DNA from: Escherichia phage arall
DNA length: 64,000 nt
Sequence record: MN850584.1
Direction: 5' to 3' (one strand)
Positions 13,786 through 45,809 of this stretch are shown here, piece after piece. How positions within the stretch are numbered: the first letter of the stretch is position 1; the number at the start of each line of letters is the position of its first letter. Made by a program: the position numbers and the translations under genes. The notes below the pieces were generated by a model, which had not been told where the DNA came from, did not search any database, and saw only the letters and a list, made by a program, of their open reading frames with translations.

Positions 13786-14946
13786 TTAGTAAGAACGACC
13801 ACCAAACACATACTCTGTGTAGTTTTTACGTTCTTTGTTTTTAATAACAACTTCAATGTTGTTACCTTTATCATCGGTGAACATAAAGTGATAGCCGTCA
13901 CCACCCATTGTACGAATGTGTTTTTCATCATACGTTAGCAAGATACGGTCTACACCCCAGTAGTAGTCACCTTCTTCATCTTTATCTTCTACGGTAACAA
14001 TCCCTTCCATTTCAGGAAGATGCTCTTCACCTAGTTTATGGTCTACAGCTACAACATAACGATTACCGCTAAACAAACCTTGTGCTGTCATACCGTCAAT
14101 ATCGGTATCTGACGAAACATCTCCTGTACGATCTACACCGTTAACTTTCAGAAGTTTAACCTCTTTTGCAGCATAGCGGTGTTCAGTAATACTGATACCC
14201 ATCAATGCAAGTGCATCAGAGAATTTGTCATTAGGGTAACGGTTAAGTTCTTCTACTAATGACTGAACAATATCAAAGTTCAAATCCACGGAGAGATTAT
14301 AAAGCGTTTCAAAATCTGGTAAGAAGGCTTTGTTCTCCAGATTTTTAGCCAGATAATCATCCATAGTAGCTTTAGGTAGTTTCTTATAGCTAAAACTGTA
14401 GAAAATACGGCTAGGACGATTACGCAAAAATTCTGATACATAACCATCATTTTTAGTCAATACAAACAGTTTGTCGTAGCCACCAACACCATCCAGCAGG
14501 GTAAGCAAACCATCTTGTGCATCTTTTTCAGCATACAGTTTATCAAATTCATCGATCATAATCATCACAGGTTGTGTGATTTTAGACATAAAATTGATAA
14601 AGCCTTCACCATTAAAAGCACTACCGATAGAAATAGTAGGAATACCCATTTCACGAAGAGCAGAAGACAGCATTTTAGCTTGCAAAGTTTTACCGCTACC
14701 TTTCGTACCTTCAAGGAGAACACCTGTGTTTTTACCTTTGCGGCTAAGGAACGTTTTGATAATACGTTCTGATTTATCATCAGTATCACCGTATGTTACT
14801 GAAGGGACTTCCATATCGTTTTTAGGATACAGGAAGAACTCACCACTTTGAGTAACACCTACACCAAAAGTTCCTGCTGGAATTTCTTCAATATCTGTAC
14901 CAGATTTCTGACGCAGAAAGATTTGATTGCCGAATACTGTAAACAT
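13786..14946 (-). CDS. AAA+/P-loop ATPase-like protein (paralog of 30965-32092)
   Basis: Walker A GTKGSGKT and Walker B MIMIDEFD; clearly alignable with the plus-strand ORF at 30965-32092. Confidence 0.6.
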   Translation of the reverse strand: MFTVFGNQIFLRQKSGTDIEEIPAGTFGVGVTQSGEFFLYPKNDMEVPSVTYGDTDDKSERIIKTFLSRKGKNTGVLLEGTKGSGKTLQAKMLSSALREMGIPTISIGSAFNGEGFINFMSKITQPVMIMIDEFDKLYAEKDAQDGLLTLLDGVGGYDKLFVLTKNDGYVSEFLRNRPSRIFYSFSYKKLPKATMDDYLAKNLENKAFLPDFETLYNLSVDLNFDIVQSLVEELNRYPNDKFSDALALMGISITEHRYAAKEVKLLKVNGVDRTGDVSSDTDIDGMTAQGLFSGNRYVVAVDHKLGEEHLPEMEGIVTVEDKDEEGDYYWGVDRILLTYDEKHIRTMGGDGYHFMFTDDKGNNIEVVIKNKERKNYTEYVFGGRSY

Positions 14947-14966: not shown

Positions 14967-15437
14967 TTAGTCAGATTCCCAAATGTTGTCTTTCTTAACC
15001 CACATTCGTTGATTATCTGAACCTCTATAACGTTTCGTTGTTGGTTGATTCATATCATACTTACCATCTATCACTATGTCAACCAGTTTTTTAATTTTCT
15101 CTGGAATTTCTTCAAAAAGATATCCTGTATATAAGACAATATCTTTTTTGTTTCCAAAACAATCTCTTACCTTCTCAAGAACATACTCTACAGTGTCAAT
15201 GTTCTCTTTGTCAAGAGGTTCACCACCTAAAACTGTTAATCCTTTAATGAAAGGTCGAGATAAATCTTCCAAGATAAGATCTAATGTTTCAGCAGTGAAC
15301 TCTTGTCCGTAGTTATACGACCAGGCTTTCTGGTTAAAGCAGCCACGGCAACCGTGGCTACAACCGCTCACCCACAAAGAGCATCTTACACCGTCACCGT
15401 TGAGCATGTCAACAGGTTCATATCCGGCGTAATTCAA
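14967..15437 (-). CDS. nrdG: Anaerobic ribonucleotide reductase activating protein (radical SAM)
   Basis: CSHGCRGC cysteine motif, about 156 aa, immediately downstream of nrdD. Confidence 0.85.
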   Translation of the reverse strand: MNYAGYEPVDMLNGDGVRCSLWVSGCSHGCRGCFNQKAWSYNYGQEFTAETLDLILEDLSRPFIKGLTVLGGEPLDKENIDTVEYVLEKVRDCFGNKKDIVLYTGYLFEEIPEKIKKLVDIVIDGKYDMNQPTTKRYRGSDNQRMWVKKDNIWESD

Positions 15438-16375
15438 AAGTGTTTCTCCCTTTCTAGTACCTCTTGCATTTTACCTTTATTATAAGGGCGAGAGTTAGGG
15501 GCAGAAAGGTATCCTGACACTCTTCTGATCACAGATATGGATTCTTCTTCGTGATTACCGCAACTTGGACACTCGAAGCCTTTAGCTGTTGCCTTAAATT
15601 CACCATGAAAACCACATTTGAAACACTGATCTACAGGTTGGTTCACGCCAAAATAAGGGATTTTGTTGTAGGCATAATCTACAAGAGTTTCCAGTGCTTG
15701 CAAGTTATTTTTAAGGTTCGGTGTTTCTACATAACCTATGTTCCCACCATTACTAATTTGTGCAAAACCTTCCTCATAATCCCACTTTTGGAACGGGGTA
15801 GTGTGCATCCATACAGGTTGATGGAAAGAGTTTGTCAAGTAGTCACGATCAATAGAGCCAGGATAGCGATCATTTAACGCTTTGGCAAATTTATAGCACA
15901 AGGATTCTGCTGGTGTTCCATACAAACTAAAAGCTAAACCAGAACGTTCTTTAAATGTGCAACAGATATCCTTCATATATTGAAGGATGTTTTTACCCAT
16001 TGCTTTTGGATTGGTGTTACCTGGGTATAAAATCTCCATAGCTTCTGCTAAACCTACATAACCGATACTAATAGAGGCATAACCACCTTCGAATAGCTTA
16101 CCAATCTCTTCATTAGCTTCTAGTCGAGCTAAAGCCCCTTCCATAAACAATGTAGGGTTTTGAGATGCTTTGGTATGTCTAATACGGTTAACACGTAGCA
16201 TATGTGCCTTATACGCCATCTCCATATGTTGTTCCAACAGTTCAGTAAATAAGATGCCCTTTTCACGGGACTCTGCTGCAATGATAGGTAAGTTTAAAGA
16301 AACTACGCCTAAGTTGAAACGACCATCATATTTTTCACCTTGCTCTGTTGCATAGTATGACAAGAAACTTCTACA
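15434..16375 (-). CDS. nrdD: Anaerobic ribonucleoside-triphosphate reductase, exon 2
   Basis: Begins CRSFL..., contains C-terminal zinc-ribbon cysteines (CFKCG...CPSCG) and ends with the RVSGYL glycyl-radical-region motif; upstream part of the track ORF is intron sequence. Confidence 0.85.
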   Translation of the reverse strand, partial: CRSFLSYYATEQGEKYDGRFNLGVVSLNLPIIAAESREKGILFTELLEQHMEMAYKAHMLRVNRIRHTKASQNPTLFMEGALARLEANEEIGKLFEGGYASISIGYVGLAEAMEILYPGNTNPKAMGKNILQYMKDICCTFKERSGLAFSLYGTPAESLCYKFAKALNDRYPGSIDRDYLTNSFHQPVWMHTTPFQKWDYEEGFAQISNGGNIGYVETPNLKNNLQALETLVDYAYNKIPYFGVNQPVDQCFKCGFHGEFKATAKGFECPSCGNHEEESISVIRRVSGYLSAPNSRPYNKGKMQEVLEREKHF

Positions 16376-17144
16376 CATTATGTTCAAAGTGGCTCGCAAG
16401 GCCACTCCCGCACCATTACGTGCTGCTGCATGTCACCATGCAGATCAGACTATATCTTCATGCTTAAAGCATGTCTACCATTTGGGGTGTCATAGGCTTA
16501 CACCCTACGCTGCTACATTCATCACAGCTAGTCGTTAGGCATTTCGTAACAGAACTCATAATCATAATTATTTGGTGCTCCGCGCTTTAAGATTGCAGAT
16601 ATTCTTTTTCTGTCCAACCCTAAAGCGTCAGCACAACATCTCAGACTTTTAAAGTAAAAAACTTCACCAGTAGCCTTATGAGTAGCTTTTACACTGTGAC
16701 ACCTTGTGTAGAAAGCATAACAGTTATTATCGTAACCCTCTTGCGTGTTGTCTGGACAAGATCCCCACTCAAGATTGTATACACTGTTGTCTTTCCTATT
16801 GTCACCTTTATGCTTCACATAAGGTAAATTGTCTGGATTGGGTAAAAACGCTTCAGCTACAAGTCTGTGCACCCGAAAGCAAACAGTTTTCTTGTTTTTA
16901 CGTATTCTGACAAGTTGGTATCCTGTGTTTATTTCTTCCCACGAGCGAAGGATTCTTTCATCCTTATACCTGGTACAATAAACATTTCCAAGCTCGTCAA
17001 TTTCATACCCTTCAAAATCACGAATTTGTTTTCTCATACCAGTACCCCCTTCTTCTGTGTTGGGAGTTCTGTTACGTTTAGCACGGGATTGTCTCGTTGA
17101 GAGTTCCCCCGTTTAGGCAGATTTTACATGAGCAGTTATAGTTT
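16376..17144 (-). mobile_element. Group I intron interrupting nrdD, carrying an HNH endonuclease ORF
   Basis: Exon 1 frame stops 2 codons after ...VTSMG; exon 2 resumes CRSFL; intron has the group I core recalled from T4 td-type introns (CTAAACGGGG...GACAATCCCGTGCTAAA), exon ends in U, intron ends in G. Confidence 0.75.
16528..17037 (-). CDS. HNH homing endonuclease (intron-encoded)
   Basis: VHRLVAEAF...VKHKGDNRKDNSVYNLEW matches the HNH_3 motif; lies inside the nrdD intron. Confidence 0.8.
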   Translation of the reverse strand: MRKQIRDFEGYEIDELGNVYCTRYKDERILRSWEEINTGYQLVRIRKNKKTVCFRVHRLVAEAFLPNPDNLPYVKHKGDNRKDNSVYNLEWGSCPDNTQEGYDNNCYAFYTRCHSVKATHKATGEVFYFKSLRCCADALGLDRKRISAILKRGAPNNYDYEFCYEMPND

Positions 17145-18002
17145 ACCCATGCTTGTGACGCGACCATCTGAAGATCCTGTAACTTCTTTGTTTAAAGGTA
17201 CAGAGATAAAATCAGGATAAATGCGTTCAGCACAACACTCCATTGCCAGTTGCTTCAAATCATAGTTTGGATCGCCAGCTTTCATGTTAACACCATCTTC
17301 CAAGAAGAAGATAACTTTAGGAAACACAGGAGTTACCCTATCTTTTCCTAATCCTTGTTTGTGCACCATTAGGTAGTTTTTAGTGATCATTCTACCAAAA
17401 GCAGAGGTATCCAAACCTAAACTAATTGTTATAAAAGGTGACTGACCATTTACACTCATTAGAGTGTTCACCTGGTAGATTAAAGTTTGCATTGCATCAT
17501 AGACCTGTTTATCTACCATACGCATAGCAATATCATAATCGCCAACATCGGCATATATTTTATTAAAACTTGCTTTAACGTATTGACTAAGCCCAGTATC
17601 AACATGTGCACAAGTTTGTCCACCATATTGGCTAGAAGCTACTGCTTGAATAATTTGAGTTAGGACAGTAGTCGCTACACCGATAGATTTTGGTTTTTCA
17701 ATATGTGCATTACCAATACGGAAACCGTTCTCAAGCATATCTTGGTAATTTACCAGGCAACAATTAGTTAAAGGTGAGAGTAAATAATCTAAATCGTGAA
17801 TGTGACCATACCCACTTTTATGCCATTCTGCCAGATCTTCCGGTAAAATATGGGTCATTGCCATGTGCTTGCTTAGGATACCTGCTAGTAAGTCTCGGTG
17901 AGTATTAACAATCATTGCAGGTTTGTTTGCATTTTCACGAGTAAATTCTTCGGATGTTTGTTCGAGGAATCCGATTACATCCTCATATAGTTTTTGGGTC
18001 AT
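17145..18002 (-). CDS. nrdD: Anaerobic ribonucleoside-triphosphate reductase, exon 1
   Basis: 286 aa N-terminal NrdD portion ending ...EVTGSSDGRVTSMG; exon1+exon2 about 600 aa, typical NrdD size. Confidence 0.85.
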
Positions 18003-30964: not shown

Positions 30965-32092
30965 ATGAAATACACGATTTATGGTGATATTGTAAGTGTA
31001 AATAAAGATATGGGCGTGGAATCTAACTATCTTCCACCTGGATTCTATACTGTTAGTCGTGATCCCCTTGGCAATTACTTTTTAAGCCGTGGTAATCTAA
31101 CAGGTGTACCGGATGTTCTGTATGGTGAAACAGAAAAACGAGCAAATCACGTTATTCGTACATTCCATCGCCGGAGTGCACAAGGTAAAAATACAGGTTT
31201 GCTCCTGACAGGAACTAAGGGCAGTGGTAAAACTATGTTAGCCAAACTCATTAGTCGTGACCTTGTAGAAGAAGGTATTCCAACTATTATGGTTACTCAA
31301 GCCTACAGTGATGCTAATTTCATTGAACTTATTAGCAAGATCACAGACAAAGCAGTCATTATTTTTGACGAGTTTGATAAAGTATATGAGAAGAAACAAG
31401 ATCAAGAAGCACTTCTCACTTTGTTAGATGGTACTGGCAGTGGTAATAAACTGTTTATTCTGACTAAAAACAGTGGTTTTATCTCTGAATTCTTTTTAAA
31501 TCGTCCTAGTCGTGTGTTTTATAATTTTAATTATGATAAAATCTCACTAGAAACTATGATTGACTATTTAGATAAAAACCTGGATAACAAAGCACACTTT
31601 GATAATTTCCAAAGACTTTGGGATGTAAGTTTAGAGTTGTCCTTTGATGTGATCCAAGGTATAGTAGAAGAACTTAATTTCTATCCTGATTTATCCTTTA
31701 AAGAATGCATCTCTATGATGGGCGTTTCTTTGGGTGGTGGTAATAAATGGGATATCAGCAGCGTTGTTATTAATGGAAAACTTCAGAAAGTTAGCTGGGT
31801 ATCTAGTTGGCATAACTTCACACCTGCAATCTTTTTAGGTGGTTCGTGCACACTAGACGTGTACTTGTCATCTCCAAGTGATGCAGACTCTAAAGAAGCC
31901 CTTGCTAATAGCTCTTACGTGGTTTTTGATGATGAAGGCGATGCTCGAATTCCATTGAATGCGACAAAAATGAAAGCAGATCTTATTACAGGCGGTAAAA
32001 TCGTTGTGTTTAGTGATGATCCAGAAGATTCTTTCCGTATTGTTCTGGAACCAACTATCACCAATGGTGCAACTTTGGCAAGTGTGTTTTAA
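30965..32092 (+). CDS. AAA+/P-loop ATPase-like protein (paralog of 13786-14946)
   Basis: Walker A GTKGSGKT, Walker B IIFDEFD; collinear similarity to minus-strand paralog. Confidence 0.6.
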   Translation: MKYTIYGDIVSVNKDMGVESNYLPPGFYTVSRDPLGNYFLSRGNLTGVPDVLYGETEKRANHVIRTFHRRSAQGKNTGLLLTGTKGSGKTMLAKLISRDLVEEGIPTIMVTQAYSDANFIELISKITDKAVIIFDEFDKVYEKKQDQEALLTLLDGTGSGNKLFILTKNSGFISEFFLNRPSRVFYNFNYDKISLETMIDYLDKNLDNKAHFDNFQRLWDVSLELSFDVIQGIVEELNFYPDLSFKECISMMGVSLGGGNKWDISSVVINGKLQKVSWVSSWHNFTPAIFLGGSCTLDVYLSSPSDADSKEALANSSYVVFDDEGDARIPLNATKMKADLITGGKIVVFSDDPEDSFRIVLEPTITNGATLASVF

Positions 32093-33360: not shown

Positions 33361-33912
33361 ATGCGGATTACTGATAAGTATGTGTTCTTCTTTTCGGCAA
33401 AAGATGAATTTAGCAACTGGTATCTATCATCTTTTATTGAACCTTTAGCTCCCAAGTATAATAATTCTATCACAAGTTCTGTCGAATTTACTTGTGTGGA
33501 ACAATATATGATGTGGAGAAAAGCATGTTTGTTTTATGATTACAATATTGCATCTTCTATTTTAACCGGAGATCTAAGATATACAGGAGAAAAAGAACAA
33601 GCATATTATAAGCGACTAGGTAGATTAGTTAAAGATTATGATGAAGACACCTGGACTTCTTTACGGGAGAAGATTGTCAAACGTGGTTTGTATCTTAAAT
33701 ACACACAAAATGAAGATCTCAAAAATAAACTTATTGCTTACGCAGATAAGGAGTTCGTAGAGGCAAGCCCTTATGATTCTATTTATGGTATCAAAATGGG
33801 GATGTGGGATCGGGACGTGGAAAATAAGGATTGTTGGAAAGGACAAAATCTTTTAGGAAAATGGCATACAGACCTTGCTGTTTATCTAAAAACACAATCT
33901 GATATTTCCTGA
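33361..33912 (+). CDS. NADAR (DUF1768, YbiA-like) domain protein
   Basis: FFFS..DEFSNWY...EQYMMWRKA...EASPYDSIYGIKMG follows the NADAR pattern. Confidence 0.7.
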   Translation: MRITDKYVFFFSAKDEFSNWYLSSFIEPLAPKYNNSITSSVEFTCVEQYMMWRKACLFYDYNIASSILTGDLRYTGEKEQAYYKRLGRLVKDYDEDTWTSLREKIVKRGLYLKYTQNEDLKNKLIAYADKEFVEASPYDSIYGIKMGMWDRDVENKDCWKGQNLLGKWHTDLAVYLKTQSDIS

Positions 33913-34130
33913 TATTTTGAAAATTTTTATTTTTATAAAAAGGGGTGTGGTTTCATGTACGGAAATCCACCCTCTGAATAATATATCCAGAGTAAATATT
34001 ATTCTGTACTCTGTTAATAAAGTATTTAATTTGTTTGTTGGACTATGGTATCTGATCTTTAAAAGGTATACTATCTCTTAACTACTACTTATAACAGAAC
34101 AGTAAAATCATTTTTATAAAAAGGATAAAA

Positions 34131-34330
34131 TTATTTAAAGTTTTTACAGATTTTTGGATACAAATTTTGAAAATGAAAAGTTCAAGTTTGGTCAAAATTA
34201 TTTAAAGTTTTTGTACGTATTTCTATCCAGATTTTGAAAATGAAAACTTCAATTTTTTAAAAATTCCCCAGTTTATTTAAAGTTTTTTTGCCTTTTTCCG
34301 TAGAAAAATCAAAAATGAAAAGTTCAATTT
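34131..34330. repeat. Three iteron-like direct repeats (period about 66-75 bp)
   Basis: Each unit has TTATTTAAAGTTTTT followed by (A)TTTTGAAAATGAAAAGTTCAA-like motif (34164-34185, 34231-34252, 34308-34327). Confidence 0.6.
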
Positions 34331-34350
34331 CGTGTTTTTATGGGTGTGCG

Positions 34351-34412
34351 GATGATAATCATTCTCACTAAGAGAATGAGAATCATTAGCAAATGAGAAT
34401 TTTTCTCATTTA
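34351..34412. promoter_or_regulatory. Nested palindromes including two Fur-box-like sites
   Basis: GATGATAATCATTCTCAC and GAGAATGAGAATCATTAGC resemble the Fur consensus GATAATGATAATCATTATC; plus perfect palindrome AAATGAGAA-TTT-TTCTCATTT. Confidence 0.4.
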
Positions 34413-34429
34413 GAGAATAACGCGCAGGG

Positions 34430-34641
34430 GTGGTGTTTGTCTCGCGCTCCCGTGTCCCCTCGCCATACAATAAGAATAGCATAACCAACAACAAAAGCAA
34501 GCGATTATTTTTATCTTTACATTTCTTTACAAATTTATTTTAGACGAGCTACCGGCGATCAACCTTCCAACCAGTGCCCCCTGGTATGTTAGCCCCGCCT
34601 TTACGCCGTGGGGGTGGCGTTTCCTCTTCTGTATGTAAAAC
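34430..34641 (-). ncRNA. Candidate structured non-coding RNA downstream of a minus-strand promoter
   Basis: GC-rich segment in AT-rich context, no ORF, directly downstream of TTGACA-17-TATACT; speculative. Confidence 0.2.
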
Positions 34642-34670
34642 AGTATAAGCCCGATCCCTGGGCTTGTCAA
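34642..34670 (-). promoter_or_regulatory. Sigma70-like promoter (TTGACA-17-TATACT), minus strand
   Basis: Consensus -35 and near-consensus -10; spacer contains GC hairpin AAGCCC-AGGGATC-GGGCTT. Confidence 0.45.
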
Positions 34671-34672
34671 GA

Positions 34673-34939
34673 TTATTTTTTGTTTTCTTGCCAGGATAGG
34701 ACACCTAACCAAAAATACATGTCGCCCCGCGCCCCTGGCGGGATCTTGCTTTCCCCGCCGCCACTGCAAGCCCATAGATAACCATTTACGAACGTATCAA
34801 AGTGATCTATCTCTTCCACCTTATGATTGCCCAGGTTGAGAACGGTTTCAACCTTTAAGCCCGTTGCGCTTGCTACCTGGTGCACCGTGCCGCCTTGCCA
34901 GCCCAATGAGTGCATGAGGTGTAAAGTAGTATTTGTCAT
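34673..34939 (-). CDS. Hypothetical protein (88 aa) in GC-rich island
   Basis: ATG with AAAGGGCG SD-like sequence; own promoter and 5' hairpin upstream; local GC content higher than surroundings. Confidence 0.5.
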   Translation of the reverse strand: MTNTTLHLMHSLGWQGGTVHQVASATGLKVETVLNLGNHKVEEIDHFDTFVNGYLWACSGGGESKIPPGARGDMYFWLGVLSWQENKK

Positions 34940-34961
34940 GGTATCGCCCTTTCTTTGATGT

Positions 34962-34977
34962 GCGCCCTGGTTGGCGC
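34962..34977 (-). promoter_or_regulatory. 5'-UTR hairpin (GCGCC-AACCAG-GGCGC) of minus-strand gene
   Basis: Inverted repeat between promoter and start codon. Confidence 0.35.
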
Positions 34978-34986
34978 GGTAGAAAG

Positions 34987-35015
34987 ATAATAGCCCTTTC
35001 CTTTATAGATAGCAA
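34987..35015 (-). promoter_or_regulatory. Sigma70-like promoter (TTGCTA-17-TATTAT), minus strand
   Basis: Back-to-back with plus promoter at 35056; shared A-tract (35016-35050) could act as UP element for both. Confidence 0.45.
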
Positions 35016-35055
35016 GCAAAAAAAAAGAAATGAAAAAAAGATTAAAAAAAAGGGG

Positions 35056-35084
35056 TTGACGTTCCTCACCTGGTAGCGTATTAT
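35056..35084 (+). promoter_or_regulatory. Sigma70-like promoter (TTGACG-17-TATTAT), first plus-strand early promoter
   Basis: Preceded by long A-tract. Confidence 0.5.
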
Positions 35085-35211
35085 TCATCTTGTCGAGGGG
35101 GGCGAGGCACAACGACAATAAACAAAAGGAGGGCGCAATGTAGGACGGGCAAAGGTGAGGATCTCCATAATCCACCGTCACAATAACATTACTTATAAAA
35201 GGTTGATAACG

Positions 35212-35307
35212 ATGATCAAGAAAGAAAACAGCTTGACGGTTGGAACGATTAACGCTATCATTCTAGCCGTTCCATTTTGGGTTGTAGTAGCGGTTATTAT
35301 CTTTTAA
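35212..35307 (+). CDS. Small hydrophobic peptide (31 aa)
   Basis: ATG 9 nt after AAGG; single TM-like segment; low confidence. Confidence 0.25.
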   Translation: MIKKENSLTVGTINAIILAVPFWVVVAVIIF

Positions 35308-35315
35308 AAATATTC

Positions 35316-35343
35316 TTGACAACGTTTTTTAATCTGATAAGAT
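35316..35343 (+). promoter_or_regulatory. Sigma70-like promoter (TTGACA-16-TAAGAT)
   Basis: Upstream of hairpin and gene 35396. Confidence 0.45.
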
Positions 35344-35353
35344 GTATCACATA

Positions 35354-35373
35354 GGGCGGCAATAGTGCCGCTC
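35354..35373 (+). promoter_or_regulatory. Conserved 5'-UTR hairpin (family member 1)
   Basis: CATAGG-GCGGCA-ATAG-TGCCGC; 40-nt element identical to copy at 38448-38487. Confidence 0.6.
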
Positions 35374-35395
35374 ATAACAGAAGAGAGAAATAATC

Positions 35396-35668
35396 ATGGC
35401 ATCATATAGCGCATCAATGATCGTAATGGGTATCACTGGTAAACCTATGCGCGGTGGCGGATCTTTCGCTAACATCAATATTGATGGGCGTTTATCCCTG
35501 GATGCAGCGATCACCGTGGCACGGGAAACATTTAAAAAAGAATGTAATTTCAATAAACAAGATTATCTCGGTTTCGCTATTGAAAAAACCGCGCGCTTTG
35601 TTGATTATAAAAGCCCGAAAATGGTTGATACTACACTAAAAGCGCAAGATGTAGCATTTTTGCTTTAA
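35396..35668 (+). CDS. Hypothetical early protein
   Basis: 90 aa ORF, ATG start. Confidence 0.55.
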   Translation: MASYSASMIVMGITGKPMRGGGSFANINIDGRLSLDAAITVARETFKKECNFNKQDYLGFAIEKTARFVDYKSPKMVDTTLKAQDVAFLL

Positions 35669-43987: not shown

Positions 43988-44001
43988 ATAACATTCCATA
44001 C

Positions 44002-44029
44002 AAGGGCGCACAAAGCGCCCTTTCTTTTT
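44002..44029 (+). terminator. Rho-independent terminator
   Basis: AAGGGCGC-ACAAA-GCGCCCTTTCTTTTT. Confidence 0.65.
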
Positions 44030-44233
44030 ACCTCAATAAAGATGATAGCTTTTACCTATCAAAAACGTTCACCGAAAAAAGTGAATAGATCGCGGTATCG
44101 AGCTAATCAAGGAGCAGATGAATAACCATACCATGAAGATCATAAGGCGCTTACAACGTGTTTTAGACCGCTTATTTTTAATTTCTTCATGCAACTATCT
44201 GGCAAAAACAGCCTTTTTCTTGTCTTTCCTCTT

Positions 44234-44250
44234 AAATGATAATCATTCTT
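44234..44250. promoter_or_regulatory. Fur-box-like site
   Basis: AAATGATAATCATTCTT; core AATGATAATCATT matches Fur consensus. Confidence 0.35.
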
Positions 44251-44290
44251 ATTTATAGCTGATTATTTATGCAATAAACTGCATAATTCA

Positions 44291-44308
44291 ATAATGATAA
44301 TCATTCTT
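44291..44308. promoter_or_regulatory. Fur-box-like site
   Basis: ATAATGATAATCATTCTT. Confidence 0.35.
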
Positions 44309-44329
44309 AACTTATGACCATCTAACCTA

Positions 44330-44640
44330 TAAAATAATAAGTTATCTAACTAAATTAAAACTAATTATCTTACTTTTATTTATAACTTACTGTTACTATC
44401 TCATTGATAACCTTATATTAAACAACAATAACTAATATAAATCATTACTAAGCTAACTATAATCTATCTAACCCTTAAAACTACAACTATAATCTATCGA
44501 ATTGTTGCACAAAGTAACTATTAAATTGTTAGTAACATTGCTAAATAATTAATATCCTATCTATTTATGATCTAATCTTTACCTTCCTATTTATTACCTA
44601 ACTAATCATTTCATACAGTAATCATTGCATACAGTAACTA
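44330..44640. repeat. G-depleted AT-rich repeat tract
   Basis: Plus strand almost lacks G; repeated CTAACT/AACTATAATCTATC (44454-44467, 44486-44499) and AATCATT-CATACAGTAA (44605-44640) motifs. Confidence 0.5.
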
Positions 44641-44676
44641 TGACAAGAAATATAATTCGCAAGCGTATCATTAGCA

Positions 44677-44845
44677 GCCTATGCCGGACACATAGGCGGC
44701 TAATATTAACGCAACTACACACCCCACATAATAACCATCGGTGATGGTTATTATTTGTGTTTATGTAGCTTGCAACAATTGCAAGCGCAACAATATACAT
44801 GGTATATTGTATTCCCTTACATTGTTGCGGTGCGTTAATATTAGC
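44677..44845. repeat. Cluster of perfect palindromes flanked by an 18-bp inverted repeat
   Basis: Hairpin GCCTATG-ccggaca-CATAGGC (44677-44697); flanking IR GGCTAATATTAACGCAAC / GTTGCG(gtgc)GTTAATATTAGC; internal palindromes ATAACCATC-ggt-GATGGTTAT (44731-44751), CTTGCAA-caa-TTGCAAG (44769-44785), CAATATAC-atg-GTATATTG (44791-44809). Confidence 0.6.
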
Positions 44846-45112
44846 TAATGTTTAGAACATTGGCTATAATATAAGCTGCATATAATAAGCTATACAATAA
44901 TAAACATGGTGAATAATGACCCTGATGATCATAATGCGCCACCCTCCAGGGGGCGCTATGTGTACACAAAAAATCTTTCTTGTCAAGAAAATATTAACAC
45001 TATTGCGCAAAATTATTTACAACTGAATAGATGATTTTTCATACTATTGCCCCTATAACATACCTCATTTGTTGAGCCTACTTTCTTAAAAGCGCAATAA
45101 ATCAGAATTATC

Positions 45113-45141
45113 TTGATTTTTAGGGCGTTTTATAGTATAGA
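45113..45141 (+). promoter_or_regulatory. Candidate promoter (TTGATT-17-TATAGA) with Fur box at predicted start site
   Basis: Weak hexamers; Fur-like 19-mer immediately downstream. Confidence 0.25.
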
Positions 45142-45147
45142 AAATAT

Positions 45148-45166
45148 GCAAATGATAATCATTATC
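45148..45166. promoter_or_regulatory. Fur-box-like operator (best match)
   Basis: GCAAATGATAATCATTATC vs Fur consensus GATAATGATAATCATTATC, 17/19. Confidence 0.45.
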
Positions 45167-45330
45167 AGCTATCTTCCACGGGTGGCACTATTTCACGCCA
45201 GATCATTTCATTTGGCAAGGTGTATATAGATGTTTAGACTTGCCAAGCCATTGATTTACTTAGAATTTATCTGTTTTGTTGTGAGTAGTACCTTTCTTGC
45301 TTAGAAAATAATCAAAAGTCTTATAAGTCA

Positions 45331-45365
45331 TTGAATGATAATGCAAATGATAATTATTCTCATTG
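45331..45365 (+). promoter_or_regulatory. Candidate promoter overlapped by tandem GATAAT Fur-like repeats
   Basis: TTGAATGATAATGCAAATGATAATTATTCTCATTG; -35-like TTGAAT, AT-rich -10 region. Confidence 0.35.
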
Positions 45366-45445
45366 ATATTTGAGGGGGACGGTCGGCAGAAATCGGGGGG
45401 CGCTGAAAATCGCGTTAAGCACCTCTCGCAAGCGAGCAGTGTTTT
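45366..45445 (+). ncRNA. Candidate small RNA (about 80 nt) between Fur-like operator and terminator-like hairpin
   Basis: GC-rich segment with no ORF, ending in CACCTCTCGC-AA-GCGAGCAGTG hairpin followed by TTTT (45420-45445); speculative. Confidence 0.25.
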
Positions 45446-45809
45446 GCGGCAAGTTATTGATATTATTGACTTTACGCTTATGAAAAGGGGGTGTGTCGAA
45501 ATAAATCGGGTATACCGGAAAATTTTTGTGGCATAGATATTTATTTGTCTATATTATGTACAAAGGGGTGTATTAAAAATAATAGGTATATATAGAATAA
45601 TTGATAGGGAAATCCTATACTAAATCCTTCATTAATGATGTTCCTATGTTGCTGTTCTTGTAACAGATGAAAAGACGCTATATGATGTGTGGCATGAGAC
45701 GTAAATTTATAAGATGCAAATAATGCTTGCATTGAATAGAAATGTCTATACACTGTGTTTCATAAGATATGCAATATCGCGCATAACAAACTACTAATGA
45801 GAGGTGTAA

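What the first reader, a model, noticed from the sequence alone, without database searches (positions are those of the whole stretch)
34131..34412. Iteron-like direct repeats followed by nested palindromes
Three copies of a 66-75 bp unit (TTATTTAAAGTTTTT ... TTTTGAAAATGAAAAGTTCAA) lie just downstream of the NADAR gene and are followed by overlapping palindromes, two of them Fur-box-like. Such arrays are typical binding-site clusters for a replication initiator, partition protein or transcription factor. Each unit also happens to start a tiny MKSS... ORF, which is probably coincidental.
Basis: seen in the sequence. Interest (0 to 1): 0.5.

Follow-up and report, generated by a model that had tools for sequence, protein, structure and literature searches.

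The report
Phage iterons beside Fur-box array
A gene-free stretch of a phi92-like E. coli phage carries three conserved direct repeats next to a row of binding sites for the host iron regulator Fur, which suggests that this family of virulent phages ties a replication or control site to the host's iron status.

Summary
Three direct repeats (34127-34189, 34194-34256, 34269-34331; spacing 67 and 75 bp) lie in 20%-GC DNA inside a 760-bp gene-free gap of a phi92-like (Justusliebigvirus) phage. Three Fur-type 7-1-7 palindromes follow (34353-34408).

Both features are conserved. All 12 relatives examined, from Stephanstirmvirinae and Vequintavirinae, have three repeats (four in A5-4) at the same place. 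The repeat sequence differs by lineage, yet the first-to-third distance is 138-143 bp in nine of eleven. All carry 1-5 Fur boxes, and the last one always abuts a conserved hairpin downstream of a conserved leftward sigma70 promoter. Fifty-six records hold at least 80% of the array. Among 15 close relatives it is 4.6-fold less variable than the neighbouring spacer. The MKSS mini-ORFs are not conserved.

I read the locus as a cis-acting protein-binding site. The repeats would bind an unidentified phage protein, and the Fur array would gate leftward transcription into them. A transcription-activated replication origin is the most likely role (about 0.38). A transcriptional switch and a repeat-containing RNA are rivals. 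No initiator gene, DnaA or IHF sites, or GC-skew switch support the origin reading. I found no description of Fur-box arrays in virulent phages.

The parts
33900..33917 (+). Two copies of TGATATTT at the left edge of the non-coding locus, overlapping the NADAR stop codon.
   Evidence: TRF period 10. The motif (T)GATATTTG is present 2-4 times at the same edge in Tr1, phAPEC8, PVP-SE1, CR3, phiTE, KB57, A5-4 and Kashira, although the upstream genes differ (read from the sequences).
33936..33970 (-). Terminator-like hairpin followed by CCCCUUUUUAU on the minus strand. It is a possible end point for leftward transcripts that cross the repeats.
   Evidence: Fold of the minus strand, z = -2.4. A hairpin plus T-run is also visible in Tr1. 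It is not conserved in phAPEC8-like phages or Vequintavirinae, so the evidence is weak.
34127..34189 (.). Iteron unit 1 (block A 34131-34145, variable spacer, block B 34165-34185).
34194..34256 (.). Iteron unit 2 (block A 34198-34212, block B 34232-34252).
34269..34331 (.). Iteron unit 3 (block A 34273-34287, block B 34307-34327). It is invariant in 15 Justusliebigvirus sequences.
34353..34418 (.). Fur operator array: 7-1-7 sites at 34353-34367, 34377-34391 and 34394-34408, plus an in-phase GAGAAT hexamer at 34413-34418. The window has lost a 52-nt segment carrying two more sites that phi92, alia and inny retain.
34416..34466 (-). GC-rich hairpin that would form the 5' leader of the leftward P3 transcript. 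It abuts the Fur array in every lineage.
   Evidence: Alignment fold on the minus strand with compensatory pairs. On this helix the minus strand gives 26 G-U cells and 10 mismatches; the plus strand gives 6 and 30. Caveat: the structure was predicted on the minus strand.
34473..34500 (-). Promoter P3 (TTGCTT, 16-nt spacer, TATTCT), reading leftward toward the Fur array and the repeats.
   Evidence: The hexamers are kept in all 18 sequences tabulated while the spacer is hypervariable: TTGCAA-17-TATATT, TTGATC-16-TATTAT, TTGACC-16-TAATAT. In L018 and A5-4 the script's best-scoring hexamers were offset from the conserved pair. The promoter is inferred; no start site has been mapped.
34516..34530 (-). 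GTAAAGAAATGTAAA, an exact match to the CpxR consensus GTAAA-N5-GTAAA, 15 nt upstream of the P3 -35 hexamer.
   Evidence: It is the only exact match in the window, but 28% of shuffles give at least one. Fifteen of 18 sequences carry an exact tandem GTAAA-N5-GTAAA (Kashira keeps one half, A5-4 none). The box ends 5 or about 15 nt before the -35, a difference of one helical turn. Motif taken from PMC9600279. This is a lead, not a demonstrated site.
34540..34635 (-). The most conserved stretch of the locus (about 84% identity in distant genera). It holds a hairpin (ACCAG 34570-34574 / CTGGT 34581-34585) and a pseudoknot-like motif (34593-34619: CCCC..CGCC..GGGG..GGCG). The functional strand is not settled; minus is assigned because promoter P2 reads it.
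   Evidence: One column pair covaries perfectly, AT x7 and GC x9. The pseudoknot stem has three compensated variants: CCCC/GGGG, CCAG/CTGG and CCAA/TTGG. No Rfam family matches.
34642..34670 (-). Promoter P2 (TTGACA, 17-nt spacer, TATACT), reading leftward. The GC hairpin in its spacer also serves as the terminator-like hairpin after the gp224-like gene.
   Evidence: 11 of 12 consensus positions. It scores 9-12 of 12 in all 18 sequences tabulated, with the spacer hairpin varying in sequence.
34673..34939 (-). Homologue of phi92 gp224 (88 aa, helix-turn-helix-like stretch GGTVHQVASATGLKVETV). It neighbours the locus and is probably not the repeat-specific binder.
   Evidence: phrog_19316, function unknown; no Pfam family. 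The helix-turn-helix-like stretch is nearly identical in lineages whose repeat boxes differ.

Best explanation
The repeats and palindromes are two modules of a conserved, roughly 750-bp non-coding control locus found in phi92-like and rV5-like phages.

(1) Repeats. The three repeats are DNA binding sites (iterons) for a sequence-specific phage-encoded protein that has not been identified. They sit in some of the most AT-rich DNA of the window, and their outer copies are held about 140 bp apart. This fits a defined nucleoprotein complex on easily melted DNA.

(2) Palindromes. These form an operator array for the host iron repressor Fur. The array lies between the repeats and two conserved leftward sigma70 promoters (P3 at 34500-34473, P2 at 34670-34642). 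Its proximal site abuts the hairpin leader of the P3 transcript in every lineage. When iron-loaded Fur occupies the array, it would limit transcription running leftward into the repeats.

(3) Role. The most likely role is an origin of replication, or initiation zone, that depends on transcription entering the AT-rich repeats, as in the T7 and T4 origins. Initiation would then be coupled to host iron status; the phage itself encodes ribonucleotide reductase genes.

Shown: the sequence features, their conservation and their geometry. Inferred: Fur binding, promoter activity, the existence of a phage binder, and the replication role.
For: Genome and setting. The window is a Justusliebigvirus, 97-98% identical to phi92 relatives. 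The locus lies between the NADAR gene and the gp224 homologue.

Conserved architecture. Tr1, Klebsiella phi1_175008, phAPEC8, L031, PVP-SE1, CR3, phiTE, KB57, A5-4 and Kashira show the same order of modules.

Repeat geometry. Each lineage has three repeats, four in A5-4. Spacings are 67+75, 67+76, 61+81, 48+90, 75+67, 78+63, 74+66 and 67+65. The core box differs by lineage: TTATTTAAAG, CTCGATCG or AACTTGAGAG. This is the pattern expected for sites that co-evolve with a phage-encoded binder. The neighbouring Fur sites keep one consensus across all lineages.

Uniqueness. The repeat blocks occur only at this locus in the 64-kb window, and none is found in phi92 1-50 kb.

Conservation within the genus. 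Fifty-six records hold at least 80% of the 225-nt array; every one of them listed covers it fully at 91-99.6% identity. Among 15 Justusliebigvirus sequences, 9 of 215 array positions vary against 26 of 156 in the adjacent spacer (Fisher p = 1e-4).

Base composition. The 200-nt windows from 34061-34101 are 20-21% GC, second-lowest in the window.

Fur sites. The 19-mer consensus with up to 3 mismatches gives 5 hits against 0.04 expected. The 7-1-7 motif with up to 2 mismatches gives 8 hits against 0.98 expected, with 0 of 100 shuffles reaching 8. Every lineage has 1-5 sites, and the site nearest the hairpin is always kept. Fur clusters of 19-142 bp are typical of real E. coli operators (PMC2189734).

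Promoters. P2 and P3 keep their hexamers across lineages while their spacers diverge.

Iron link. The phage carries ribonucleotide reductase and NrdD-like genes.

General principle. Repeats plus AT-rich DNA mark phage and plasmid origins (PMC7145576).
Against: - No gene for an initiator or any repeat-binding protein was found. The gp224 homologue is excluded as the lineage-specific binder, and the upstream neighbour genes differ between subfamilies.
- There is no enrichment of DnaA boxes or IHF cores in any lineage.
- The cumulative GC-skew minimum and the switch in gene orientation lie near 29 kb, not 34 kb. Skew in these phages follows transcription (PMC3606486), so this is a weak argument.
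- Units of 63-75 bp are much longer than classical 17-22-bp iterons.
- The Fur sites lie downstream of P3 rather than over a strong promoter. In E. coli, Fur clusters between promoter and gene repress only weakly (PMC2189734).
- A rightward promoter overlapping the last Fur box (TTGAAT-N18-CAGAAT) is plausible in some Vequintavirinae but weak in the window and poor in phiTE and KB57 (and the sequences).
- No transcript, binding or replication data exist.
Confidence: 0.38

Rival explanations
1. Transcriptional switch only. The repeats are operator or enhancer-like sites for a phage regulator. Together with host Fur, and possibly CpxR, they set the output of promoters P2, P3 and perhaps a rightward promoter at the boundary between two transcription units. 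Replication is not involved.
For: The locus is dense in promoter-like and host-regulator-like elements: P2 and P3 are conserved, Fur sites are present, and there is a CpxR-consensus box. A small protein gene with a helix-turn-helix-like stretch sits next to it. Strong sigma70-like promoters and a run of small early-type ORFs begin just to the right. Fur boxes paired with promoter-like modules recur at the genome terminus. The locus has no origin-specific host sites.
Against: The repeats lie 100-170 bp or more from any predicted promoter, and that distance varies with the number of Fur boxes. In contrast the internal geometry of the array, about 140 bp between outer copies, is held. No sigma70-like promoter is conserved inside the units (my reading of the sequences). 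A 750-bp gene-free locus is large for a simple switch in a compact phage genome.
Confidence: 0.27
2. The repeats act as RNA. They are three modules of a long leftward non-coding RNA that starts at P3 or P2, crosses the Fur array and ends at the hairpin plus U-run near 33940. The modules would bind or sequester a protein or RNA, and Fur would control the RNA's abundance.
For: The conserved leftward promoters point into the repeats. A terminator-like hairpin with a U-run lies on the minus strand beyond them. The 5' hairpin shows a G-U versus A-C asymmetry favouring a minus-strand RNA. The adjacent element has covarying helices and a pseudoknot-like motif. A related phage, phiTE, uses a repeat RNA (pseudo-ToxI) against a host defence system (PMC3475682).
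Against: Within the genus the substitutions tend to fall in the intra-unit spacers while the two sequence blocks stay fixed (3 of 108 against 6 of 57, p = 0.065). This suggests sequence recognition rather than base pairing. I saw no covarying helix inside the units. An RNA gives no reason to hold the outer copies about 140 bp apart while the middle copy shifts by up to 17 bp. The downstream terminator is not conserved outside Justusliebigvirus and Tr1. The units are not head-to-tail 34-36-nt repeats like ToxI, and the phiTE pseudo-ToxI locus is elsewhere, at 106.7 kb.
Confidence: 0.13
3. Fur decoy (this concerns the palindromes and is compatible with the other readings). As phage DNA multiplies, its Fur boxes titrate host Fur. 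The Fur regulon is derepressed and iron uptake rises, to the benefit of phage nucleotide synthesis.
For: There are several near-consensus sites per genome: 3-5 at this locus and at least 4 in the terminal region, two of them inside the 343-bp terminal repeat and therefore present twice per virion genome. Multicopy Fur boxes are known to derepress the regulon; this is the principle of the Fur titration assay (my own knowledge). The phage encodes ribonucleotide reductase genes.
Against: PVP-SE1 and A5-4 keep only one site at this locus, and it is always the one at a fixed position next to the P3 leader hairpin. That points to local regulation rather than bulk titration. The window itself has lost two of five boxes.
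Confidence: 0.1
4. The repeats encode three small MKSS peptides, or they are a neutral local triplication with no function.
For: Each unit contains ATGAAAAGTTCA or ATGAAAACTTCA. The longest of the three mini-ORFs is 18 aa as read from the sequence; one search lists it from an upstream TTG as a 27-aa ORF.
Against: The ATG is replaced by ACC, AGC or ACT in the homologous units of Tr1, Klebsiella phi1_175008, phAPEC8 and L031. No Shine-Dalgarno sequence precedes it. The third ORF runs into the Fur array, where a 52-nt indel (not a multiple of 3) separates relatives. Neutrality is contradicted by conservation of three copies across two subfamilies and by the 4.6-fold lower variability.
Confidence: 0.04

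Closest known systems
[quoted passage not shown]
   Same: Several direct repeats in one orientation within a gene-free, AT-rich region. The sequence is specific to each replicon lineage while number and layout are kept. RSF1010 oriV likewise has about three iterons next to GC-rich and structured single-strand initiation elements (my own knowledge). PLE repeats in a non-coding region were shown to bind RepA (PMC7145576).
   Different: The units here are 63-75 bp with two conserved blocks, not 17-22-bp iterons at about 22-bp spacing. No initiator gene lies next to the locus or has been identified. There is no enrichment of DnaA or IHF sites. A Fur operator array sits directly beside the repeats. 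Replication from this site has not been shown.
Transcription-activated phage origins (T7 primary origin; T4 oriF/ori(uvsY) and oriG/ori(34))
   Same: One or two promoters are followed downstream by an AT-rich unwinding region (my own knowledge). Here P2 and P3 both read into the AT-rich repeat array.
   Different: Those origins have no iterons and no host repressor sites between promoter and AT-rich DNA. Here 130-330 bp, including a hairpin leader and a Fur array, separate P3 from the repeats.
E. coli Fur operator clusters (e.g. iucA, fhuF, fepA-fes)
   Same: Near-consensus 7-1-7 / 19-bp Fur boxes in clusters of several sites covering tens to more than 100 bp (PMC2189734).
   Different: These are in a virulent phage genome. 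No strong promoter overlaps them in the window. Centre-to-centre spacings are 17-29 bp (my count from the sequences), not overlapping sites 3 or 6 bp apart. The locus has no homologue in E. coli chromosomes or plasmids.
phiTE pseudo-ToxI repeat RNA (anti-ToxIN)
   Same: A repeat-containing non-coding locus in a phage of the same wider group (PMC3475682).
   Different: It is a different locus (phiTE 106.7 kb; the homologue of this locus is at about 39.6 kb). Its repeats are 36-nt head-to-tail units related to ToxI. No sequence similarity and no toxin partner apply here.

Membership tests
Iteron-type replication origin | Three or more direct repeats in the same orientation at regular spacing | tested here: met
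   Three copies at 67- and 75-bp spacing; three copies in nearly all related lineages. Unit length is atypically long.
Iteron-type replication origin | AT-rich, easily melted DNA at or next to the repeats | tested here: met
   20-21% GC for 200-nt windows starting 34061-34101, second-lowest in the 64-kb window.
Iteron-type replication origin | A cognate initiator protein that binds the repeats, usually encoded nearby | tested here: inconclusive
   No candidate was found. The helix-turn-helix-like stretch of the gp224 homologue does not vary with repeat type. The upstream genes (NADAR, CapR/T5orf172, AAA ATPase) are not shared with Vequintavirinae. The rest of the genome was not screened.
Iteron-type replication origin | Host-factor sites (DnaA boxes, IHF) common in such origins | tested here: not met
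   0-1 DnaA box (up to 1 mismatch) and 0-2 IHF cores per locus in 11 lineages, against expectations of 0.14-0.35. None is positionally conserved.
Iteron-type replication origin | Replication starts there (marker frequency, 2D gels, autonomous or phage-dependent replication of the cloned site) | not testable with these tools
   No experimental data. The GC-skew minimum is at about 29 kb, not here, but skew follows transcription in these phages.
Fur operator (Fur box) | Match to the 19-bp consensus GATAATGATAATCATTATC or the 7-1-7 motif TGATAATnATTATCA | tested here: met
   34372-34390 matches 16/19 and 34348-34366 matches 15/19. The 7-1-7 sites have 1, 2 and 3 mismatches.
Fur operator (Fur box) | More sites than chance allows, and clustered | tested here: met
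   5 against 0.04 expected; 8 against 0.98 expected, 0 of 100 shuffles. Three adjacent sites here, five in phi92. Every related lineage has at least one at the same position.
Fur operator (Fur box) | Overlap with the -35/-10 region of the regulated promoter | tested here: inconclusive
   No promoter at 9 of 12 or better overlaps the array in the window. A weak rightward candidate exists, better in some Vequintavirinae (TTGAAT-N18-CAGAAT). The array lies about 48 nt downstream of the inferred P3 start.
Fur operator (Fur box) | Binding by Fur and iron-dependent regulation | not testable with these tools
   Needs gel shift or footprinting, a Fur titration assay, and delta-fur infections.
CpxR-activated promoter | GTAAA-N5-6-GTAAA box upstream of the -35 hexamer | tested here: inconclusive
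   Exact match at 34516-34530, but 28% of shuffles give at least one in the window. An exact tandem box is present in 15 of 18 sequences, 5 or about 15 nt from the P3 -35. That conservation could equally reflect a phage factor or RNA. Motif from PMC9600279.
ToxI-like / pseudo-ToxI repeat RNA | Head-to-tail 34-36-nt repeats with an adjacent or cognate toxin | tested here: not met
   Units are 63-75 nt with variable spacers, no toxin gene is adjacent, and the phiTE pseudo-ToxI locus is elsewhere.
Any Rfam RNA family | Covariance-model match at the gathering score | tested here: not met
   0 matches in the whole window. Only chance-level hits (E of 0.2 or higher, far below the gathering scores) in 33900-35400.
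Small-peptide genes (MKSS ORFs) | Start codon and reading frame conserved in relatives | tested here: not met
   The ATG is absent from the homologous units of four other Stephanstirmvirinae. A 52-nt indel lies within the third ORF.

The most novel reading that the evidence does not exclude
Virulent phages of two subfamilies (Stephanstirmvirinae and Vequintavirinae) read the host's iron status through conserved arrays of Fur operators. One array gates transcription into a three-iteron initiation site. Others sit in the terminal repeat, next to promoter-like modules. Replication or early gene expression would therefore be tuned to iron availability. The same locus carries an undescribed structured element with a pseudoknot-like motif that is about 84% conserved across genera.
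Probability: 0.3. Interest if true: 0.8.

Novelty: new variant of a known kind. Interest (0 to 1): 0.6.

Why it matters
Origins and master control regions of rV5-like and phi92-like phages are unknown. Skew analysis failed to define an origin for rV5 (PMC3606486). These phages are widely isolated against pathogenic and multidrug-resistant enterobacteria.

This locus is conserved, unique in the genome and modular, so it gives a concrete site to test for replication initiation and to use in engineering.

If the Fur boxes are functional, they would show a strictly lytic phage wiring a host metal-sensing repressor into its own programme. That bears on phage performance in iron-limited settings such as the infected host. 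A search of the paper library for 'Fur box' together with 'lytic phage' returned one unrelated review. The locus has no homologue in E. coli genomes or plasmids.

Tried and rejected
- Sigma70 promoters inside the repeat units. I checked both strands by eye and with the scan. No -35/-10 pair is conserved among copies or lineages.
- MKSS mini-ORFs. Rejected.
- The gp224 homologue as the repeat binder. Rejected, because its helix-turn-helix-like stretch is the same in lineages with different boxes.
- Upstream genes as a conserved initiator. The AAA ATPase is not homologous to the Vequintavirinae neighbour proteins, and no homologue of those proteins is found in the window.
- DnaA and IHF sites. 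None enriched.
- GC-skew origin signal. Not at this locus.
- Genome end or packaging site. The phi92 terminal repeat maps to window 45075-45417, 10.7 kb away. phiTE is reported as circularly permuted.
- Pseudo-ToxI. A different locus.
- Rfam. Nothing.
- Host or plasmid origin of the sequence. No match.
- A gapped three-box pattern scan of viral contigs. It returned only chance hits in AT-rich giant-virus and other contigs and was useless.
- NADAR-based locus retrieval. It gave only 5 loci.
- Literature searches for a described origin, Fur site or transcriptome in this phage group. Nothing relevant was found.
- A rightward Fur-controlled promoter P1. It remains uncertain: its -10 lacks the conserved A2 in phiTE and KB57.
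- AA/TT helical periodicity. Only a weak 11-bp peak (p about 0.014, uncorrected).
Full report
**What is there**

Window 33913-34672 is a 760-bp stretch with no credible ORF. It lies between a NADAR-family gene (33361-33912, plus strand; Pfam E = 2.5e-36) and an 88-aa minus-strand gene (34673-34939). The window is a phi92-like phage (Justusliebigvirus, Stephanstirmvirinae), 97-98% identical over this region to EmilieFrey, PHB05 and phi92, and the two flanking genes correspond to phi92 gp223 and gp224. Some depositors have marked a bare 'repeat_region' here (phages alia and inny). Nothing else is annotated.

**Checking the repeats**

The repeat finder returns one family of three 63-nt direct copies at 34127, 34194 and 34269, with 83% and 71% identity to the first. 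TRF sees the first two copies. Each copy has block A (TTATTTAAAGTTTTT, exact three times) and block B (TTTTGAAAATGAAAAGTTCAA) at a fixed 34-nt offset, separated by a spacer that differs between copies.

In the 64-kb window both blocks occur only here at 0-1 mismatch. A 12-mer present three times arises in 0.1% of Markov nulls of the region.

**Checking the palindromes**

The palindromes at 34347-34411 are three Fur 7-1-7 sites at 34353, 34377 and 34394, followed by an in-phase GAGAAT hexamer at 34413. The classical 19-mer Fur consensus with up to 3 mismatches hits the window 5 times against 0.04 expected. The 7-1-7 motif with up to 2 mismatches hits 8 times against 0.98 expected, and 0 of 100 shuffles reach 8.

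**Conservation within the genus**

A distant-mode search with the 225-nt repeat array finds 56 records that hold at least 80% of it. Every one of them in the listed sample covers it fully, at 91-99.6% identity. The 14 Justusliebigvirus relatives I aligned all keep three copies.

In an alignment of 15 Justusliebigvirus sequences (14 relatives plus the window), 26 of 156 positions vary in the non-coding spacer just upstream (33971-34126). Only 9 of 215 vary in the array (34127-34341), a 4.6-fold difference (Fisher p = 1e-4). Six of the nine fall in the intra-unit spacers. The three inside blocks are a change at the edge of a block, a one-base change in T-run length, and a substitution that converts unit 2 toward the consensus. 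Unit 3 and the linkers are invariant.

The Fur array is more plastic. phi92, alia and inny carry an extra 52 nt with two more Fur sites. That gives five 7-1-7 sites in phi92 and four within 3 mismatches in alia. The window has lost this segment by what looks like recombination between two copies of TGATAATCATTCTCA. It is the only one of the 15 aligned sequences lacking it, and single-piece matches suggest JLBYU50 and Eryne share the short form.

**Conservation beyond the genus**

A distant-mode search shows that the right part of the gap (34391-34639, especially 34514-34639) is kept at about 84% identity in Phapecoctavirus, Seunavirus (PVP-SE1), Certrevirus (CR3, phiTE), Mydovirus (KB57, Mydo) and others, always unannotated. 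I read the loci of Tr1, Klebsiella phi1_175008, phAPEC8, L031, PVP-SE1, CR3, phiTE, KB57, A5-4 and Kashira. They share one architecture, in this order:

1. 2-4 copies of (T)GATATTTG at the end of whatever gene lies upstream.
2. A spacer of about 230-300 bp.
3. Three direct repeats (four in A5-4).
4. 1-5 Fur sites.
5. A GC-rich hairpin.
6. A conserved element.
7. A strong minus-strand promoter.

The repeat families differ by lineage: TTATTTAAA(G/C) in Stephanstirmvirinae; (G)GTTCTCGATCG in the PVP-SE1, CR3, phiTE, KB57 and Kashira group; GAACTTGAGAGG in A5-4. The geometry is nevertheless held. Start-to-start spacings are 67+75, 67+76, 61+81, 48+90, 75+67, 78+63, 74+66 and 67+65. The outer copies are therefore 138-143 bp apart in nine of the eleven genomes measured, while the middle copy shifts by up to 17 bp.

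The combination matters. The repeat sequence is lineage-specific but number and span are fixed, and right beside the repeats the Fur sites keep the same consensus in every lineage. This is what one expects if the repeats are read by a co-evolving phage protein and the palindromes by a conserved host protein.

An alignment of 15 Stephanstirmvirinae units gives the consensus TTATTTAAAG-TTTTT-N19-AAAAcCAAAATtTAAAGTTT.

**The neighbourhood of the Fur array**

Fur-site counts (up to 3 mismatches) between the last repeat and the conserved element are as follows.

| Phage | Fur sites |
|---|---|
| window | 3 |
| phi92 | 5 |
| alia | 4 |
| Tr1 | 3 |
| Klebsiella phi1_175008 | 4 |
| phAPEC8 | 2 |
| L031 | 3 |
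| PVP-SE1 | 1 |
| CR3 | 4 |
| phiTE | 4 |
| KB57 | 2 |
| A5-4 | 1 |
| Kashira | 2 |

The site that is always kept abuts ..TTTGCAGAAT(A/G)nCGnGCAGG, the base of a GC-rich hairpin.

Two minus-strand sigma70 promoters are conserved:

- **P2** (window 34670-34642, TTGACA-17-TATACT, 11 of 12) scores 9-12 of 12 in all 18 sequences tabulated.
- **P3** (window 34500-34473, TTGCTT-16-TATTCT) keeps its -35 and -10 hexamers in all of them while the 16-17-nt spacer is hypervariable. That pattern is the mark of a real promoter.

Directly upstream of the P3 -35 lies TGTAAAGAnnTGTAAAGA. [quoted passage not shown] In the window the match alone is not significant, since 28% of shuffles give at least one. I treat it as a lead.

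P3 transcripts would begin with the hairpin (34466-34416), then cross the Fur array and enter the repeats. On this helix, which has Watson-Crick covariation at two pairs, the minus strand gives 26 G-U cells and 10 mismatches, and the plus strand gives 6 and 30. This favours a minus-strand RNA, with the caveat that the structure was predicted on that strand.

A terminator-like hairpin with a U-run for leftward transcripts lies at 33970-33936 but is conserved only in Justusliebigvirus and Tr1.

A rightward promoter overlapping the last Fur box (TTGAAT-N18-CAGAAT) is plausible in several Vequintavirinae. It is weak in the window (GCAAAT..GAGAAT), and it lacks the key A2 of the -10 in phiTE and KB57 (and the sequences). 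The promoter on which Fur acts is therefore not settled.

**The conserved element (34540-34635)**

No Rfam family matches. A hairpin (ACCAG/CTGGT) has one column pair that covaries perfectly, AT in 7 sequences and GC in 9, plus compensatory changes in Kashira.

All 17 sequences can form CGCC..GGCG together with a second 4-bp stem between the loop and the downstream sequence. That second stem appears in three compensated versions: CCCC/GGGG, CCAG/CTGG (Tr1) and CCAA/TTGG (A5-4). This is a pseudoknot-like arrangement. These pairs are symmetric between strands, so they do not fix the strand.

**Genome context**

- Genes run leftward up to about 29 kb and rightward from 29.4 to 57 kb. The cumulative GC-skew minimum is at about 29 kb.
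- The leftward block holds a DNA helicase and ribonucleotide reductase genes.
- phi92 is annotated with a 343-bp direct terminal repeat, which maps to window 45075-45417. The window's second large gene-free region (43990-45800) is therefore the genome terminus.
- That second region has the lowest GC of the window (19.5%). It contains four more Fur sites, two of them inside the terminal repeat, arranged as repeated modules of promoter-like sequence plus a Fur box.
- No repeat blocks occur in phi92 1-50 kb. Fur sites are thus concentrated in two non-coding loci, and the repeats are unique to this one in the roughly 96 kb examined.

**Interpretation**

I hold three things with good confidence:

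- The palindromes are Fur operators (about 0.8).
- The repeats are selected cis-acting sites read as DNA by a phage factor (about 0.65).
- The two belong to one conserved control locus.

The role is inferred. An origin, or initiation zone, activated by transcription entering AT-rich iterons fits the following: unique site, lowest-GC DNA, lineage-specific repeats with fixed span, promoters pointing in, and structured elements beside it. This resembles the T7 and T4 origins and RSF1010 oriV, and it agrees with the general rule cited in PMC7145576.

Against it:

- No initiator was found. The gp224 homologue is excluded and the neighbour genes are not shared between subfamilies.
- There are no DnaA or IHF sites.
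- There is no skew switch at this locus.
- The unit length is atypical.
- Fur sites downstream of a promoter are expected to repress only weakly (PMC2189734).

The rivals are a purely transcriptional switch, a repeat-containing leftward RNA, and Fur titration. The last is compatible with the other readings but is weakened by lineages that keep a single, positionally fixed site.

**Novelty**

Searches of the paper library found no description of this locus, of an origin for this phage group, or of Fur boxes in lytic phages. The rV5 paper only notes that skew analysis did not define an origin and draws a 'non-coding' box. The locus has no homologue in E. coli genomes or plasmids. I class it as a new variant of known kinds: an iteron array plus a Fur operator cluster, in an unusual host (a virulent phage) and an unusual combination.

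Noticed in passing
window 43990-45800: This second large gene-free region is the genome terminus: the phi92 343-bp direct terminal repeat maps to 45075-45417. It has the lowest GC of the window (19.5% near 44.24 kb). It holds four more Fur 7-1-7 sites (44237, 44295, 45153 which is a perfect match, and 45348), two of them inside the terminal repeat. They are arranged as repeated modules of promoter-like sequence plus a Fur box, followed by GC-rich sequence.
   Followed up: partly
window 34540-34635: An unannotated element kept at about 84% identity across distant genera (Phapecoctavirus, Seunavirus, Certrevirus, Mydovirus). It has a covarying hairpin and a pseudoknot-like motif in three compensated variants. 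No Rfam family matches.
   Followed up: partly
window 34516-34530 (minus strand): GTAAAGAAATGTAAA is an exact match to the CpxR consensus. An exact tandem box is present in 15 of 18 sequences, just upstream of the -35 of the conserved leftward promoter P3, 5 or about 15 nt away.
   Followed up: partly
window 33900-33917: The motif (T)GATATTT(G), repeated 2-4 times, marks the left edge of the non-coding locus in every lineage, although the upstream genes differ.
   Followed up: partly
window 34352/34353 (indel relative to L001-L003): The window lacks a 52-nt segment carrying two Fur boxes that phi92, alia, inny and all 14 other aligned relatives have. The deletion lies between two copies of TGATAATCATTCTCA.
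   Followed up: yes
window 34673-34939 (minus strand): Small protein (phi92 gp224 family, phrog_19316, no Pfam family) with a conserved helix-turn-helix-like stretch LGWQGGTVHQVAxxTGLxVxxVL. KB57 and PVP-SE1 have an unrelated small ORF at this position instead.
   Followed up: partly
L007-L010, L012 repeat regions (e.g. L010 1094-1296): In lineages with the CTCGATCG box, each repeat unit carries one or two GATC (Dam) sites about 20-23 bp apart. That gives 6-9 GATC per locus against about 3 expected. The window's own repeats contain none.
   Followed up: partly
L006 2130-2190, L031 2720-2765, L010 950-1075: Another short motif, TTATCTCAAA, occurs two or three times between the left edge and the first repeat in phAPEC8, L031 and KB57 (my reading).
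   Followed up: no
L025 (Raoultella phage Ro1), about 230 nt upstream of the anchor motif: The conserved element is interrupted just after the TTTGTAAA motif by what looks like the start of a minus-strand gene, possibly a mobile insertion.
   Followed up: no
window 15434-16378 and 17136-18002 (minus strand): Two separate ORFs match different parts of one NrdD-like anaerobic ribonucleotide reductase family (phrog_487 positions 393-713 and 102-392). This suggests a split gene or an intervening element.
   Followed up: no
window 13786-14946 (minus strand) and 30965-32092 (plus strand): Two paralogous AAA ATPases of the same family (phrog_2376). The second has weak similarity to clamp-loader and DnaC-like helicase-loader families.
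   Followed up: no
hits H54, H124, H132, H133 (records MG065689, MG065639, MG065645): Records labelled 'Campylobacter phage' A110a, A150 and A145 are roughly 92-98% identical to E. coli Justusliebigvirus over this locus. Their host labels look doubtful.
   Followed up: no
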